A stretch of DNA of 64,000 nt from Curvularia clavata (lineage: Eukaryota). The DNA lies in the NCBI GenBank assembly GCA_023920165.1, contig CP089278.1:3100001-3164000 (forward strand), in the 5' to 3' direction. The position numbers and the translations under genes were made by a program. Positions 24,982 to 30,978 of this stretch are shown here, one piece after another. The notes beneath the pieces were generated by a model, which saw only the letters and a list, made by a program, of their open reading frames with translations, was not told the DNA's origin and did not search any database. The number at the start of each line of letters is the position of its first letter. The first letter of the stretch is position 1.

Positions 24982-26229
24982 CTAATCTTCTTCGTCCTCC
25001 ATATATTTCATGCTTCCCTCCGCTTCCAGGCGTTGGAGACAGTCAGCCAGCGCGGATCCACATGTATCCATCGCAAGCAGCTGTTCAGCTAGTCCCGCCG
25101 TACATATCGACCTTGCCCAAACTTCTTGCGCCGGGTCACTGCAGTGCGTACTCTCAAAGAGCAAGTTCAGATCATCTAGCACAATATCGACATCTTTGTC
25201 TTGCGCGGAAAGCAAGTGCCATCGATCCATGACCAGGCCCTGAACATGATCATCGTCCAACTGCGCAGCTAAACAATAAAGCTGCATGAGGGAGACGTCG
25301 TTGTATGTTTCTTGGTCCGTTGGTTGAGGAAGAGCGTTTGAGGACTTGCAAAGAGCATAACACTGAAGTATCTTCTCCAATGGCCCATGTAGCTGCACAT
25401 GTATTTTGTCTTCGCCATTGTCCAACAAACCGATAATACCGGAGTCTTCTCGCAAAAGTTCGCGTTTGATAGTGGCAGTTCCAAGCAGCGCTTCGCGTGT
25501 GTCAAAGATTTCGATGGTTACTGCACTGGGTTTTGCCAAAGCCGCGCGATCGATGTAATTACGAAGATCGGATGCGTTACGAAGGTCATCTGGTGGCGTC
25601 CATCCTGCAATACGTTCATGAGAAGTATCGTACTCTGAAATCCGCAGCATATCTCTGTCTTCTGTTATTCCAGCGCCGGTGCCTGCGTCCGATGCTGGGG
25701 TTACCTCGTTCCTTTTCGCATAGGTGATCTCGGTAGGATATGATGGATGTTTCGCTATCCATGCAGCGCGATGCTGGCGTGCCCGCTTTTCCATGGCCGC
25801 AGGAGTGACGGAGACACCATATTTCTCGTTGTACGCTTTAGCTACAATTGTCCAGGATGAAGGCCCATATGTAGTTGAGACTGTGCCGTATGGATCTGGC
25901 TTGTTGTTATCGCGCCTGAGAATGATGAAGCCAACTTGTTCGTCCAGATGTTGCTGCTTTGCGCGTTTCTCTGTGCCTGTCATAGCTCGGTGTGCGGGAC
26001 GTTGTTTGCTGGTAAGTGGATGTGGCTTGATGCCTTTCTGTTTATTGTTCTCAAATCTGAAGCCGCTGGGATGATGGCCATTTACGCCAGCGGTGGCACC
26101 GACTGCGTGAGAAACATGTCGCACAAAGGTGTTTTCCGAAGACTGTGTATGCTTCAATTTCTTTGTCGGTCGGGCTGAGACATCGTCAGACGTGCCTAAA
26201 GCACTGCGTTCGCGTTTCGTTGAAGCCAT
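24982..26229 (-). CDS. hypothetical nuclear protein (NLS, Myb/HTH-like segment, BTB-like C-terminus)
   Basis: 415-aa ORF; RPTKKLK NLS, WTIVAKAYNEKYG..AMEKRAR, LMQLYCLAAQLDDDHVQGLVMD. Confidence 0.65.
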   Translation of the reverse strand: MASTKRERSALGTSDDVSARPTKKLKHTQSSENTFVRHVSHAVGATAGVNGHHPSGFRFENNKQKGIKPHPLTSKQRPAHRAMTGTEKRAKQQHLDEQVGFIILRRDNNKPDPYGTVSTTYGPSSWTIVAKAYNEKYGVSVTPAAMEKRARQHRAAWIAKHPSYPTEITYAKRNEVTPASDAGTGAGITEDRDMLRISEYDTSHERIAGWTPPDDLRNASDLRNYIDRAALAKPSAVTIEIFDTREALLGTATIKRELLREDSGIIGLLDNGEDKIHVQLHGPLEKILQCYALCKSSNALPQPTDQETYNDVSLMQLYCLAAQLDDDHVQGLVMDRWHLLSAQDKDVDIVLDDLNLLFESTHCSDPAQEVWARSICTAGLAEQLLAMDTCGSALADCLQRLEAEGSMKYMEDEED

Positions 26230-26517: not shown

Positions 26518-27950
26518 CTATCCAGCTTCACCTGTTAACATGACCGTGCCAAAGATGTGCGGCGACTCGTTTCTCTTGTTCTTTCCTAGCCACTTGACAA
26601 TTGAATTCCAATCAGCATCCAAACTATCCTCGTCAAGGAAAAGCTCGTATGATTTCTCGTCGGACGCTTCCTCACTCTCTTTGAGAAGAATACTCGTCAT
26701 CGTTCGGTCCCATAACTTTTTGCGCTTCTCAGCTTGGATTCGAAAGTCCTCAAAGAAAACCTGCCCGGGCGCGTCTGGGCGCAACCATACACCAAAACGT
26801 TTCTCGCCCCATTCGATTGCTATGCGGAGCTTGTCGGAGGGTACGTCTGGCCGGGTTTCAGAGACTGCACTCGTGGAGGCAGCGGTTGCAACGGTGGCAC
26901 GGTACAGGTTAGGTTGCGAGGTTTCGTGTTGCGTTGGTTGTGAGCCAAGAAATGCGTTTGACGGCATGTTTTGCGGGTAGTGATGGCTTTCCATTGGCCC
27001 ACCAGAAGCTGACGGTGCAAAATTCATGGTTTCTGGTATTATCGGGATATGGTTGTTGTGCCGTGTTTGATACTGTGTTCGTAGCGAATCATTGTTTGTG
27101 TCGGCGGAACGATGGAACGATCCTAGAGGCGGCGATCGACCTGAAGGTTGCAGTCCTGAATTGTATCCCTGAAAGGGACTAGGCTCAGGATGCAGTGGTG
27201 GAACATCGGGAGCGGGATATTCTGAAGAAATTGGAGCGTTGATCAGCACAGTAAAATAGCAGTGTTCGCCAAACACTGTGCGTACGCACCTACACCAGTA
27301 TCGATGTGACTAAGGATGATATCATCATCGAGTGCTTCATCGGAAACTACGCAGAATTCGGTTCTATGTGTTCTGCCAGACTTTGGACGACGCCAGGTCA
27401 GTTCTACTAAGCAATGATATGGAACAGCAATGGTTGTTCTTGTGTCCGCATTCCCAGGTATATGGACTTCCCCCCCTTCTCTCGAGACTGTATTGGCATC
27501 GATCTCGTCCTCGGATAATAGGTTATGGCGGATGACGCTGTGGGTGGTTATTGGTGCGATTTTCATATGGACGGGTTGCTCCTTAACACCATCTTCGGTA
27601 TTTTTCAACAGATAGATGTACTGTTTATGGCCACTGCTACCTTTTGTCGAATCTGACCTTGGGGTCCTCGCAGGGCTAAGAGGATACGCTGATGGCGGGC
27701 GCTGTGTAGTTTCCCGTTGGTGAATATGGGAACCAGAATGATGCGACTCGTGCAGAGAGGGTGCCACAGAGGATCCGAATGATCCTCTTCCTGCTGGCTG
27801 ATGCGGCGACGCGCCCGGTTTCGGGATAAAGTAAAAGATTTTATCGCAAACTTCCTGATACTTGCAACACTCAGCGAGGATGTCCTGGACTTTCTCCTGG
27901 TCGTATTCGAACAGTTGCGCGACTATTGCGCGTGCCTTGCCGTACTCCAT
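26518..27950 (-). CDS. retropepsin-like pseudo-protease with P/S/Q-rich linker and putative PB1/ubiquitin-like C-terminal domain (about 454 aa)
   Basis: The two overlapping ORFs join in frame through intron 27222-27289 (GTGCGT..GCTGAT..CAG). VHMKIAPITTHSVIRHNLL, VELTW, TEFCVV and DDIILS follow the retropepsin pattern but lack DTG. Confidence 0.65.
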
Positions 27951-28544
27951 TCCCTGTGGTCAAGGCAGACTGGAGCCGCATGTGTGCCTGACGCTTACCG
28001 GTATCAGCGTTGCACAACCGAAGTCCGGATATGCTGTGAGGGGCAGCGCGAACCGAGGCGCATTCAATCAACATGGCTCATACTTGTCGCCTGAAGGGGT
28101 AAGAACAATGAGATGCGCGAGGCGCAATGCGCGCGAAACAGAGGCCGCTGGCGATGCAGAAGACGATGAGGCGCAGATGGGAAGGGCGGCCGTGATGAAA
28201 GTGGGGTCCATCGATTTCTCATACCAACATGGCGTTCGCAACCACGCCTTTCCCTGATGATTTGACCGGAAACGCCCATGTTCGCACCATCTCTGACAGG
28301 ACTGGCTGGCTCATACGCCACATGCAACCGGCAAGGCAGATACTACTAGCATATCACACCCCCCCGCTCGGCTGCTCAGGCCCTCAAGCGCTCAGTACCG
28401 ATCGCACCCCCGTCCATTCAGGCCTGGGCAGTTCAAGACTCTTGGGCATCCTGCCCGCATGTGCTTCTCGCCATCTCGGGCATGCATCCCACTATGTCTG
28501 CGACGTCTGCCTCCAGCCGCTGCTCCAACGACAAGAGAGCGACC

Positions 28545-29255
28545 ATGATGGCTACATCAGTGAGCCGAAACATTTCTAGCGGCAATGCCGTCCAGATTAA
28601 TGGTCCGGTAGCAGACAAAGTCTGTAATCTTCACTTGTAAGTTCTGATCCAACTTCAAAAACCAAGGCGTTGCTGATGTATCCAAGTCAAAACCTAATCG
28701 TCAGTTGCCAGTGCATCTCGGTCACCAAGTTAGTCACTTCGGCGAAAGCACCAGCAACTTCGAGTACTCCAATATTAGAGCCACCGACTTCCTTGAGTGT
28801 GAAACAGGTTCCATCTGTGGTGCAAGTCGTTGACCAACCGGTCACAGCCTTGCTGGTGAGTGCAACTTACCACAACATACCGTATAACAGGTACTCATGG
28901 TATGCAGGAGAGCGCCTCAAACAAAGCAGACTTTCGTCAAGAGAATCTGGTTTTCACTTCTCGGCTGCGTAAGATACGTCAAGTTGTTCGCGCCATATTT
29001 CGACCTGATCTACCCATCAGCTTCATTGACCGCCGGATAGTAAAACGACTTGAATTAGTGACGCATCACTACAACCGGAATGGAAAGGAGATCTCAATGA
29101 ATCAATCAAAAACACCATACATGACAGACTACGTTGACCTTCCTTGCTGCCCAAGCAAGGGTGGTAAATGCGTCATACATCGATTTTACGTCGTCAAAGA
29201 GTGCCCTTTCGACCTCGTATTCGGCGCCAATTCGATAGACCCCCACCATTCATAA
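28545..29255 (+). CDS. small protein with N-terminal amyloid-like motif and C-terminal retropepsin-like pseudo-protease (about 202 aa, 3 exons)
   Basis: Exons 28545-28636, 28687-28855 and 28908-29255 splice in frame (GTAAGT..AAG, GTGAGT..CAG). Starts MMATSVSRNISSGNAVQINGPV; later VRAIFRPDLPISFIDRRIVKRL, YVDL, HRFYVV, PFDLVFG. Confidence 0.75.
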
Positions 29256-29652
29256 TCCGCAGAAGACGATGACTCGACGCGGTTGGACTGCATGAATTCA
29301 AGACGAAAGGTATATCTTGACTCGCGTCAAGCCAGTCAGCCCTGGATTGCGTTTATCGGGATCTGCTGCTTCCCATTGGGTGCCGGCAACGATGCGAACG
29401 TGGGGTACTTGTGGTGTGCAGCTGCAGCTGCAGGGCGCTTCACGATGGCGAATCAGTGGTTGAAACCACCAATACTGCTGGTTTGTCACTGGACAACCAC
29501 CAGATGTAATGGCTGCATAATTAATACTGCGCCGAGCGTGGCTCTGCTTTGCTCGGCTGGTCATAAATACGCTATTGTATCAGCTCAACTGCCGGTGCAA
29601 CTTCGTTTCCATCTGTATCTTGATTCAAGCCAACTGTCGCACGATCTTCAAT

Positions 29653-30621
29653 ATGGTAAGTTGAATAAGCAGATTGGGAAAAATTTGAGCTTACGTGGTC
29701 CTAGGTTGACCCCATCAGCCTCGTCTCTGCAATCCAAGCTAGTACTCAACTCATGGAGCAAGCCTTTCGGATTCTAAAACGTCTTCGCACGGCGTATGAG
29801 CGACAGAAAGATGTTGTCGACGTGTTGAATCGACACGAAACTGAACTGTCTGGTGTCAAAACCATCATTGGTATAATCGAAGATGAGGATGGGTTGCGAA
29901 CTCCAAGCATCGCTATGGAATTGGGTCGGTTACAGGTTGTCCAAACAAAATTGGCTAAATTGCTTCATGATCTGGATCCACAGGGGAAGGGAAAAGTAAG
30001 CCAGTATACACGGCAATTGATACATGGCTCAGAAGATGAACGGAAACTGTGCGTGATCATGACTGAACTGGCGCATGTCAAGTCAACACTTCTCGTTTGC
30101 ATTCAAGTTGCCAATATTCGAGAGATGGGCAACAGGTTCGAGGCCAATGCAGAAGCCATCCAGCGCATCGACCAAATCCTTCGAGAAAACTGCGAGGGTC
30201 TACAAATTGCACGCTTACTAAAAGGCAGACGCCCGTCAAGTAAGTGTTCCATATTTCCAGATTTGCTAAAACGTTACTTACGAAATTAGATGACGGATAC
30301 GTGCCACTGACTCGGGCTGAGCTGAAGTCCCTTGAAAATGACGCAAGCAATAGCGAATGCAGCGAAGACGAGACTTTGGTTGACGAGTCTGAAGAGAAAC
30401 AGCCAAATGGTATCTTTAAAACTGAGCGTATTTTGTCAAACAACGAATCGCACGATGAGTCTGTTCAGATTAACGGTCCAGTGGAAAAGGACCTTTGGAA
30501 ACACATCAGCCGACTGGAGATAAAAGACAATCACTCTAAAGACAAGAGTCTCCAATTCAACTACGCCATGCCTCTCAATGTGGTCTTGGCCCTTCTTAAG
30601 AATAGGCGGGATGGATCATAA
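29653..30621 (+). CDS. HeLo-like/SesA-type helical effector with C-terminal two-repeat amyloid-like domain (about 289 aa, 3 exons)
   Basis: ATG, intron 29656-29704, VDPISLVSAIQASTQL amphipathic N-terminal helix and helical bundle, intron 30240-30289, acidic linker, repeats at 30436-30483 and 30523-30570. Confidence 0.8.
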
Positions 30622-30978
30622 GGGAACAAACCAGGAAATTGAGTCCATGTCAGGAACACGCTGTCAGGGTCGTGTGTAGGTAGCAATCTTGAGTCGCTGT
30701 TGTATGAGATCTTTTGTCGCTTTCAGTAGTATGATTGAATGAGATGATTCTATGTCCAAAATGCCGTTGCCACCACGTAGTGACACGAAGATGAGGACTG
30801 ATGTGGTGAATGTCAGAGTACACATGCGGTTGGAAGACAAAGGCTTGAGATCCACATCTGACTCAGGCGTCTTATCGATAACGACCACGTTGCACGCTTC
30901 AACCGCGTCCCGTATCCAGCCCTCGGATGCACCACCAATATGTGAAGCCACGCGCCCACATTACGCGTTGCGCAAAAC

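What the first reader, a model, noticed from the sequence alone, without database searches (positions are those of the whole stretch)
26518..29255. Divergent pair of catalytically dead retropepsin-like proteins
Both head-to-head genes (ATGs 27950 and 28545) contain the retroviral-type aspartic protease pattern of strand-[LDTG]-x-x-x-[NS]-hydrophobic-I, V-x-L, F-x-VV and D-x-hydrophobic-hydrophobic-G. In each, the catalytic DTG is replaced (FRPDL in one, IAPIT in the other). Retropepsins are obligate dimers (established). Inference: the two may heterodimerise, or act as decoys for retroelement or viral proteases, their substrates or inhibitors. That could cluster the R0 motif and fire the effector, making this a three-gene defence or allorecognition module like paired sensor/helper genes.
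Basis: inference. Interest (0 to 1): 0.75.

Follow-up and report, generated by a model that had tools for sequence, protein, structure and literature searches.

The report
Fungal dead-protease amyloid signalling gene trio
A conserved three-gene cluster in fungi appears to use two enzymatically dead protease-like proteins, instead of the usual immune receptor, to start an amyloid switch that would turn on a neighbouring cell-death-like protein.

Summary
The observation largely holds. The window is fungal; named relatives are Pleosporales. Gene B (202 aa; both introns seen in run contigs) carries an N-terminal single motif (R0) and a retropepsin fold with Arg at the catalytic Asp. Downstream gene C has a helical, weakly HeLo-like domain plus two repeats (R1/R2) matching R0. 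A-B-C order is kept in 7 of 7 loci with enough flank, while flanking genes change. No NLR is evident in the window, and a strict motif pattern hits only B and C in the genome. R1/R2 show in-register charge complementarity and R0 is charge-poor, as in HET-s-related motifs, but the motif is absent from the published HRAM table. A predicted A:B complex passes (0.61, best control 0.00), through a surface that is not the canonical retropepsin dimer. Best reading: an NLR-free amyloid signalling module in which a PB1 scaffold arrays B and seeds C. Amyloid formation, cell death and the trigger are inferred; the retroelement-protease decoy idea has no support.

The parts
26518..27950 (-). Gene A, 454 aa: helical N-domain + linker + pseudo-retropepsin + linker + PB1-like domain; exons 27290-27950 and 26518-27221, intron 27222-27289
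   Evidence: joint in X1 and X3; relatives in 7 loci
27825..27950 (-). A N-terminal small domain (about 42 aa, helical by inspection), conserved pattern across relatives; lies mostly in a stretch too divergent to lay at 85% in run X3
   Evidence: no credible Pfam family
27294..27644 (-). A pseudo-retropepsin domain (res. 103-219); dead loop IAPIT at 27546-27560; out-of-register invariant D-[ST]-G at 27294-27302
26521..26847 (-). A C-terminal beta-grasp domain, best matches PB1 domains; invariant Arg in strand 1 plus two acidic clusters
27951..28544 (.). 594-bp divergent intergenic region; in run X3 the contig covering A ends at 28254 and the contig covering B-C begins at 28266 (shared bidirectional promoter inferred)
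28545..29255 (+). Gene B, 202 aa: R0 motif + linker + pseudo-retropepsin; exons 28545-28636, 28687-28855, 28908-29255
28548..28610 (+). R0, single charge-poor copy of the N-x7-Q-h-N-G motif
28935..29246 (+). B pseudo-retropepsin domain; FRPDL at 28998-29012, Arg at the catalytic Asp position
29653..30621 (+). Gene C, 289 aa: helical putative HeLo-like effector domain + acidic linker + two-repeat C-terminus; exons 29653-29655, 29705-30239, 30290-30621
30421..30483 (+). R1 repeat of C
30508..30570 (+). R2 repeat of C, 29 residues after R1 in every complete copy seen

Best explanation
An NLR-free amyloid signalling and cell-death module. SHOWN (sequence or computation): the three genes travel together; B and C share one motif in the receptor-side (one copy, N-terminal) and effector-side (two copies, C-terminal) layout; both retropepsin-like domains are catalytically dead; A ends in a PB1-like fold. 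MODEL-SUPPORTED: A's and B's dead domains bind through a non-canonical surface. INFERRED: A is the sensor-scaffold that replaces the NLR hub. When its variable N-terminal part meets a non-self cue (most simply a different allele after hyphal fusion, or a pathogen cue), A arrays through front-to-back PB1 contacts. The arrayed pseudo-protease domains collect B. The crowded R0 motifs nucleate a beta-solenoid, which templates R1/R2 of C and frees C's N-terminal helix to damage the membrane, as in NWD2/HET-S.
For: Synteny: B beside C in 13 of 15 loci (2 lack flank); A-B-C in 7 of 7 loci with at least 5.9 kb upstream, five sequence groups plus the window; window flank genes have no significant hit; adjacent locus tags for B and C in two Pyrenophora teres annotations. 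Motif: 3 hits in the 64-kb six-frame translation (R0, R1, R2) against a shuffled mean of 0.24, with 1 of 200 shuffles reaching 3; the pattern was derived from these sequences. The stricter DNA pattern hits only R0 and R1 in 32 Mb. R1/R2 in register: 32 opposite-charge vs 1 same-charge pairs over 13 distinct pairs; slid controls 3-11 vs 4-21; R0 8% charged vs 16% and 24%. Both traits are described for HRAMs in PMC4518210. Folds: B retropepsin (Ddi1 E 2.8e-4, TM 0.61; EIAV protease Z 8.7, rmsd 3.2, 95 aligned); A C-domain PB1-like (Cdc24 PB1 Z 8.2, rmsd 3.2, 89 aligned) with basic and acidic faces conserved. A:B complex score 0.61, best of 3 controls 0.00; runs agree in at least 59% of contacts; partner pLDDT at least 69; mark reached by 51 of 78 solved and 2 of 108 mismatched pairs (eukaryotes 39 of 65 and 2 of 126). 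B's polar interface positions are more conserved than its other polar positions (0.57 vs 0.40, p 0.012). B's own copy of the hairpin that A uses is variable, so B probably needs A to be arrayed. Two deeply diverged A types: 121 differences in 1079 bases of A vs 4 in 536 of C exon 2 in run X3; X1 holds both types.
Against: No amyloid, toxicity or binding was measured. C's effector identity is weak: PF17111 E 0.078, below cut-off; no PF17111 or SesA hit in 8 C proteins or 8 further C sequences; hhalign probability 8.6% although the score (25.1) beats 40 of 40 shuffles. The motif departs from HRAM rules (Gly19 replaced in most R1 and all R2; Asn at 8 and 18). One of three complex runs scored 0.00, and blind neighbouring genes passed 7 of 44 times. 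A's side of the interface is not more conserved than background (p 0.40, 5 relatives). The PB1 matches are tied within 1-2 Z with other beta-grasp folds, and none has Foldseek E below 0.001. In a second lineage A exon 1 diverges no more than C (94% vs 95%; exon 2 87%). The trigger is unknown.
Confidence: 0.45

Rival explanations
1. Same amyloid-to-death output, but A is a brake (guard or antitoxin). A binds B constantly and keeps the R0 motifs apart; cleavage, loss or allelic mismatch of A frees B to seed C.
For: Same synteny, motif and complex evidence; long low-complexity linkers in A that could be cut; PB1 domains with both faces often polymerise constitutively (own knowledge), which would need gating; diverged A types.
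Against: B lacks an evident self-association module: short C-terminus and a variable hairpin. A polymer-type domain on A fits a scaffold better than a simple cap.
Confidence: 0.2
2. The trio is a signalling complex but not a death pathway or not amyloid: R0/R1/R2 form a small soluble beta-solenoid in trans, and C's helical domain has a regulatory or developmental output.
For: C is below the Pfam cut-offs for HeLo-like and SesA; its N-terminal helix is only moderately hydrophobic (0.73-1.31 on a 19-residue Kyte-Doolittle window); the motif is not in the HRAM table.
Against: One-copy/two-copy layout, charge complementarity, charge-poor R0, gene adjacency, C's size near 300 aa and the MxDPxS-type start all match the published amyloid-effector pattern. 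UniRef names one C relative 'Fungal N-terminal domain-containing protein'.
Confidence: 0.15
3. One reading: the dead domains bait retrotransposon or viral proteases, or their substrates or inhibitors, and this binding clusters R0.
For: Retropepsin fold shared with such proteases; the genome holds many retropepsin matches in long retroelement-like frames (43 PF13650 matches among 44 candidates), so a ligand exists.
Against: No special closeness to these proteases (best 4.9 bits for the B profile, none above 3 bits for the A profile, over 7 loci). B seems to lack the C-terminal dimer strand needed to pair with a protease in the canonical way. B's conserved surface is taken by A in the model.
Confidence: 0.1
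4. A is not dead: its invariant D-[ST]-G after the hydrophobic-Gly motif is a relocated catalytic residue, and A or A:B is an atypical protease that cuts C or itself.
For: D-[ST]-G in 7 of 7 A sequences; B has one invariant Asp.
Against: Wrong register for the catalytic loop; not in the predicted interface; an Asp shortly after that Gly is a common structural feature of the fold (own knowledge).
Confidence: 0.04

Closest known systems
NWD2/HET-S and other HRAM NLR-effector pairs (PMC4518210; PMC9815663)
   Same: Adjacent genes; one charge-poor motif at the N-terminus of the upstream partner, two charge-complementary repeats at the C-terminus of a roughly 300-aa helical effector.
   Different: The R0 carrier is a 202-aa dead retropepsin, with no NACHT/NB-ARC or repeats; a third divergent gene is conserved; the motif has Asn at 8 and 18, Gln at 16, lacks the conserved Gly19 in most R1 and all R2, and is not in the published HRAM table.
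Bab/Agp BASS11 antiphage pair (bioRxiv 10.1101/2024.11.07.622273)
   Same: Amyloid signalling from a non-NLR activator to a small helical death protein encoded next door.
   Different: Bacterial; two genes; the activator is a 1094-aa TPR-GreA/B-PIN protein; no pseudo-protease or PB1 scaffold.
Ddi1-type retroviral-like protease proteins (RVP; Pfam Asp_protease_2 / gag-asp_proteas / RVP_2)
   Same: Retropepsin fold; A, like Ddi1, combines it with a beta-grasp domain (Ddi1 architecture recalled).
   Different: No catalytic D-[TS]-G in the loop; short C-terminus in B; predicted hetero-interface is not the active-site dimer; beta-grasp is C-terminal and PB1-like; below Pfam cut-offs.
PB1 scaffolds (Cdc24, NBR1/p62, MEKK3)
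   Same: Fold, a basic residue in strand 1 and acidic clusters.
   Different: 5-16% identity; no Pfam PB1 hit; polymerisation untested.
Fungal gasdermin-protease clusters (PMC12881547)
   Same: Two- or three-gene cell-death clusters holding a protease-fold gene.
   Different: Those use active serine or CHAT proteases and gasdermins; the review's main text has no word starting 'aspart'.

Membership tests
Retropepsin (clan AA) proteases | Retropepsin fold, gene B | tested here: met
   AlphaFold2 pLDDT 81.7; Foldseek top hit Ddi1 RVP E 2.8e-4; VIA Z 8.7 with EIAV protease
Retropepsin (clan AA) proteases | Retropepsin fold, gene A | tested here: inconclusive
   No separate model searched. Atlas feature hits 0.91-0.92 to retropepsin clusters with 127-155 shared features; hhalign to B family 100 columns, E 5e-4, score 28 vs shuffle maximum 21
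Retropepsin (clan AA) proteases | Catalytic D-[TS]-G in the active-site loop | tested here: not met
   B: 0 of 31 relatives with D-[TS]-G there, 2 with Asp alone; A: 0 of 7
Retropepsin (clan AA) proteases | Two-fold dimer through terminal strands and catalytic loops | tested here: inconclusive
   A:B model uses another surface; B C-terminus short; homodimers not modelled
HRAM (HET-s-related amyloid motifs) | Two C-terminal pseudo-repeats on the effector and one N-terminal copy on the adjacent gene | tested here: met
[quoted passage not shown]
   32 vs 1 pairs, slid controls lower; 8% vs 16% and 24% charged; related sequences, so counts are not independent
HRAM (HET-s-related amyloid motifs) | Invariant Gly19 and hydrophobic positions 5, 8, 10, 16, 18 | tested here: not met
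   With the numbering set by R0's Gly: Gly in 1 of 13 R1 and 0 of 13 R2; Asn8, Gln16, Asn18 fixed by the search pattern; only 5 and 10 fit
HRAM (HET-s-related amyloid motifs) | Amyloid or prion formation and cross-seeding | not testable with these tools
   needs experiment
NLR-effector amyloid signalosome | R0 carried by a NACHT/NB-ARC receptor | tested here: not met
   R0 is on B; strict pattern finds no other copy in the genome; no NLR-like frame by inspection among 28 ORFs of 200 aa or more
HeLo-like (PF17111) / SesA (PF17107) effectors | Profile match of the N-terminal domain | tested here: inconclusive
   PF17111 E 0.078 over residues 2-159, 12.8 bits vs cut-off 27.2; hhalign 25.1 vs shuffle maximum 20.5; relatives no hit; no model made
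PB1 domain | Beta-grasp fold with basic and acidic (OPCA-like) faces | tested here: inconclusive
   Top structural hits are PB1 (Z 8.2, 7.5, 7.3) but close to other ubiquitin-like folds; charged faces conserved in 7 of 7; no Pfam PB1 hit
het (allorecognition) locus | Deeply diverged alleles and allele-specific death on fusion | tested here: inconclusive
   Two A types about 10-12% apart with C nearly identical; weaker in a second lineage; death not testable

The most novel reading that the evidence does not exclude
A fungal amyloid cell-death pathway with no NLR at all, in which a domesticated pair of dead retroviral-type protease domains serves as the adaptor interaction module (as death domains do in animals), a PB1 polymer supplies the clustering, and a new Asn/Gln-ladder beta-solenoid motif family carries the signal; A's alleles define self and non-self.
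Probability: 0.4. Interest if true: 0.88.

Novelty: new variant of a known kind. Interest (0 to 1): 0.72.

Why it matters
The fungal amyloid signalling motifs in the papers consulted were found and defined through NLR receptors, and 57 of 155 HRAM effectors had no adjacent NLR (PMC4518210). This cluster suggests another activator class: small pseudo-protease adaptors with a polymerising scaffold. If true, it adds a new motif family and a new use for the retropepsin fold. It also gives a compact three-gene system, with relatives across Pleosporales including crop pathogens, that can be rebuilt in Podospora or yeast to ask how amyloid nucleation is gated without a nucleotide switch.

Tried and rejected
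Alternative B model with an intron at 28969-29020 that would remove FRPDL: not supported by the spliced contig. Pfam gave no significant family for A, B or C exons; only 2 of 34 B-family members weakly hit Asp_protease_2 (best E 0.004). PDB sequence searches with B, A-C-terminal and C profiles gave nothing significant. A search for full-length A relatives among proteins of 386-2000 aa found none among 760 candidates (weak evidence). No paralogues of A, B or C in the own genome. No C relative in 185,579 prokaryote genomes. A fourth gene (NPHP3_N, NACHT-like) lies tail-to-tail with A in L016/L018/L019 but not in the window, L009, L010 or L014, and lacks R0, so it is not counted as core. P0017 and P0037 were dropped from the B alignment as repeat artefacts (33 of 35 hits aligned). 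P0001 and L018 were dropped as near-duplicates before the conservation counts. One of the 18 'R0' rows is an R1 counted by a script slip. Contig depth was not used to rank genes. Earlier-findings look-ups returned nothing. Scans of viral and prokaryote collections with the A and B domain alignments could not be run (no conserved seed), so non-fungal relatives of those domains are untested at DNA level.

Full report
Setting. The window is part of a 32-Mb, 8-contig genome with fungal-type introns. Named relatives of genes B and C are all Pleosporales: Pyrenophora, Alternaria, Plenodomus, Paraphoma, Neocucurbitaria, Aaosphaeria, Lentithecium, Neodidymelliopsis, Stagonosporopsis (order assignment is my own knowledge).

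Gene models. A (minus, 27950-26518, one intron, 454 aa), B (plus, 28545-29255, two introns, 202 aa) and C (plus, 29653-30621, two introns, 289 aa) translate without internal stops. Of 17 listed runs I laid 4. A's joint appears in X1 and X3, both B introns in X3, C's first intron in X3, X11 and X15, and its second in X3 and X15. These are assembled contigs, and three of the four runs are only guessed to be RNA, but the GT..AG skips in B and C match the models. FRPDL is therefore exonic.

The dead retropepsins. B's exon-3 domain was modelled from a 34-sequence alignment (pLDDT 81.7). Its top matches are Ddi1 RVP (Foldseek E 2.8e-4, TM 0.61) and EIAV protease (Z 8.7, rmsd 3.2 over 95); Atlas features agree (0.95, 183 shared). 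A weak profile alignment to a retrotransposon protease of the same genome puts B's Arg on the catalytic Asp. Among 31 relatives with a residue there, 2 have Asp and none has D-[TS]-G. A's domain (res. 103-219) was not modelled alone. It aligns over 100 columns with the B family (E 5e-4), scoring 28 against a maximum of 21 in 40 block shuffles and 15 reversed. Atlas hits are retropepsin clusters at 0.91-0.92 with low shared-feature counts. None of 7 A sequences has Asp in the loop. All 7 carry D-[ST]-G at the domain end, out of register; this is unexplained.

A's last 109 residues fold as a beta-grasp (pLDDT 80.9). The best matches are PB1 domains (Cdc24 Z 8.2, MEKK3, NBR1), though other ubiquitin-like folds follow closely and no Foldseek hit is below E 0.001. 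An invariant Arg in strand 1 and two acidic clusters are kept in 7 of 7. That is the pattern of PB1 domains that polymerise front to back (own knowledge).

Linkage. A metagenome scan with C gave 15 loci. B lies just upstream of C in 13 of 15; the other 2 have under 200 bases of flank. A lies head-to-head with B in all 7 loci with at least 5.9 kb upstream; the other 8 are too short. These 7 fall into five sequence groups. The five window neighbours tested had no significant match in any locus, so the trio persists while its surroundings change. Two P. teres annotations give B and C consecutive locus tags.

The motif. N-x7-Q-h-N-[GAHYS] occurs three times in the window's six frames: at B's N-terminus and twice at C's C-terminus, 29 residues apart in every complete copy. 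Shuffles give a mean of 0.24, and 1 of 200 reaches 3; the pattern was drawn from these sequences. A stricter DNA pattern hits only R0 and R1 in the genome, with 1 hit for the reversed control, so no NLR with this exact motif is evident elsewhere. Across 13 distinct R1/R2 pairs there are 32 opposite-charge and 1 same-charge in-register pairs (slid controls 3-11 and 4-21), and R0 is charge-poor; the sequences are related, so these are not independent events. PMC4518210 describes both traits for HRAMs. But Gly19 and the hydrophobic positions 8, 16 and 18 are not kept, and seven motif words gave no hit in that paper's two supplementary files, where a HET-s control word hit 8 times. It works like an HRAM but is not shown to be one of the five families.

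The effector. C's N-domain is conserved (57-67% identity) and starts with a moderately hydrophobic helix. Membership of HeLo-like is weak: PF17111 E 0.078 over most of the domain; profile score 25.1 against this genome's PF17111 members vs a shuffle maximum of 20.5, probability 8.6%; no hit in relatives; one UniRef name 'Fungal N-terminal domain-containing protein'. No model was made.

A:B binding. The complex scored 0.61 (runs 0.61, 0.00, 0.65), best of 3 controls 0.00; runs agree in at least 59% of contacts, partner pLDDT at least 69. The mark was reached by 51 of 78 solved and 2 of 108 mismatched pairs (eukaryotes 39 of 65 and 2 of 126; blind neighbours 7 of 44). This supports binding but does not show it. 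The interface joins A's first strands and its 83-94 hairpin to B's 11-15, 24-30, 41-47 and 99-102. It leaves out both catalytic loops and both C-termini, so it is not the canonical retropepsin dimer and is unlikely to be recall of it (inference). B's polar interface positions are more conserved than its others (p 0.012); A's are not (p 0.40, 5 relatives). B-family proteins mostly stop 5-15 residues after the hydrophobic-Gly motif, and structural alignments leave the last 3-5 residues of HIV and EIAV proteases uncovered. 'Obligate dimer' therefore does not transfer simply.

Variation. In X3, A differs from the window at 121 of 1079 laid bases, and two further stretches, one covering most of the N-domain, do not lay at 85%. 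A's 5' region differs at 7 of 313 and C exon 2 at 4 of 536. X1 holds both a window-like and a diverged A; X15 holds a diverged one. This resembles allorecognition loci, but fast drift in a sister species is not excluded, and the second lineage shows less contrast.

Mechanism. Most likely A replaces the NLR hub: a variable N-domain as input, a PB1-like polymer as scaffold, and a dead retropepsin as docking site for B. Arrayed B molecules stack R0 and template R1/R2, releasing C's helical domain to kill the cell. The genes, folds, dead sites, linkage and motif layout are shown; A:B binding is model-supported; polymerisation, amyloid, death and trigger are inferred. I put an amyloid-to-death module of any polarity near 0.75 and this scaffold version at 0.45. 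Rivals: A as brake (0.2), non-death or non-amyloid complex (0.15), decoy for retroelement or viral proteases (0.1; such proteases abound in the genome, but show no special likeness), relocated active site (0.04).

Literature. Seven full-text searches (listings only, at most 20 rows each) showed no paper on such a cluster. No listed paper combined 'retropepsin' or 'PB1 domain' with the fungal amyloid terms, and lists are ordered by number of terms held. Seen: PMC4518210 parts 1-3 of 5 and two supplement searches; PMC9815663, PMC12881547 and PMC12261475 selected passages only, supplements not opened; bioRxiv 10.1101/2024.11.07.622273 abstract and section 4, supplements closed. The motif could sit in unopened supplementary motif tables or in subscription journals. 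Bab/Agp shows that non-NLR activators exist in bacteria.

Verdict. A real, conserved, apparently undescribed three-gene variant of fungal amyloid signalling, built from two pseudo-retropepsins and a PB1-like scaffold rather than an NLR. New variant of a known kind; interest 0.72.

Noticed in passing
L016:3406-4344, L018:3727-4566, L019:2884-3831 (+): NACHT-like gene (PF24883 NPHP3_N, E 4e-9 to 7e-12) with an apparently degenerate P-loop lies tail-to-tail with gene A in this lineage only; between L016 and L018 it is just 69% identical while the trio is 87-96% identical.
   Followed up: partly
window 27294-27302 (-): Invariant D-[ST]-G at the end of A's retropepsin domain, right before the intron, in 7 of 7 sequences; out of catalytic register; unexplained.
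   Followed up: partly
P0054 (P. teres PTT_13168, 404 aa): An annotation that fuses the N-half of B (with R0) to C; probably a gene-calling error, since other P. teres annotations keep them separate.
   Followed up: no
window 28266-30794 (+): In run X3 one contig spans genes B and C with all four introns spliced; could be read-through or overlapping UTRs.
   Followed up: no
window 24982-26229 (-): Intronless 415-aa ORF just downstream of A with no Pfam family; not syntenic in related loci.
   Followed up: partly
G000 contigs C1-C8 (L052-L068): At least 17 retropepsin matches with identical scores in 1100-2100-aa open frames, i.e. a young, high-copy retrotransposon-like family with an intact D-S-G in the copy inspected.
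   Followed up: partly
L069 = G000:C1:1063687-1066938: A 464-aa frame with two tandem Asp_protease_2 matches; one aligns weakly with the B profile and keeps D-T-G.
   Followed up: no
P0039-P0049: Distant B-like dead retropepsins without a visible R0 (some may be partial gene calls), two with Asp retained; suggests a wider fungal pseudo-retropepsin family.
   Followed up: no
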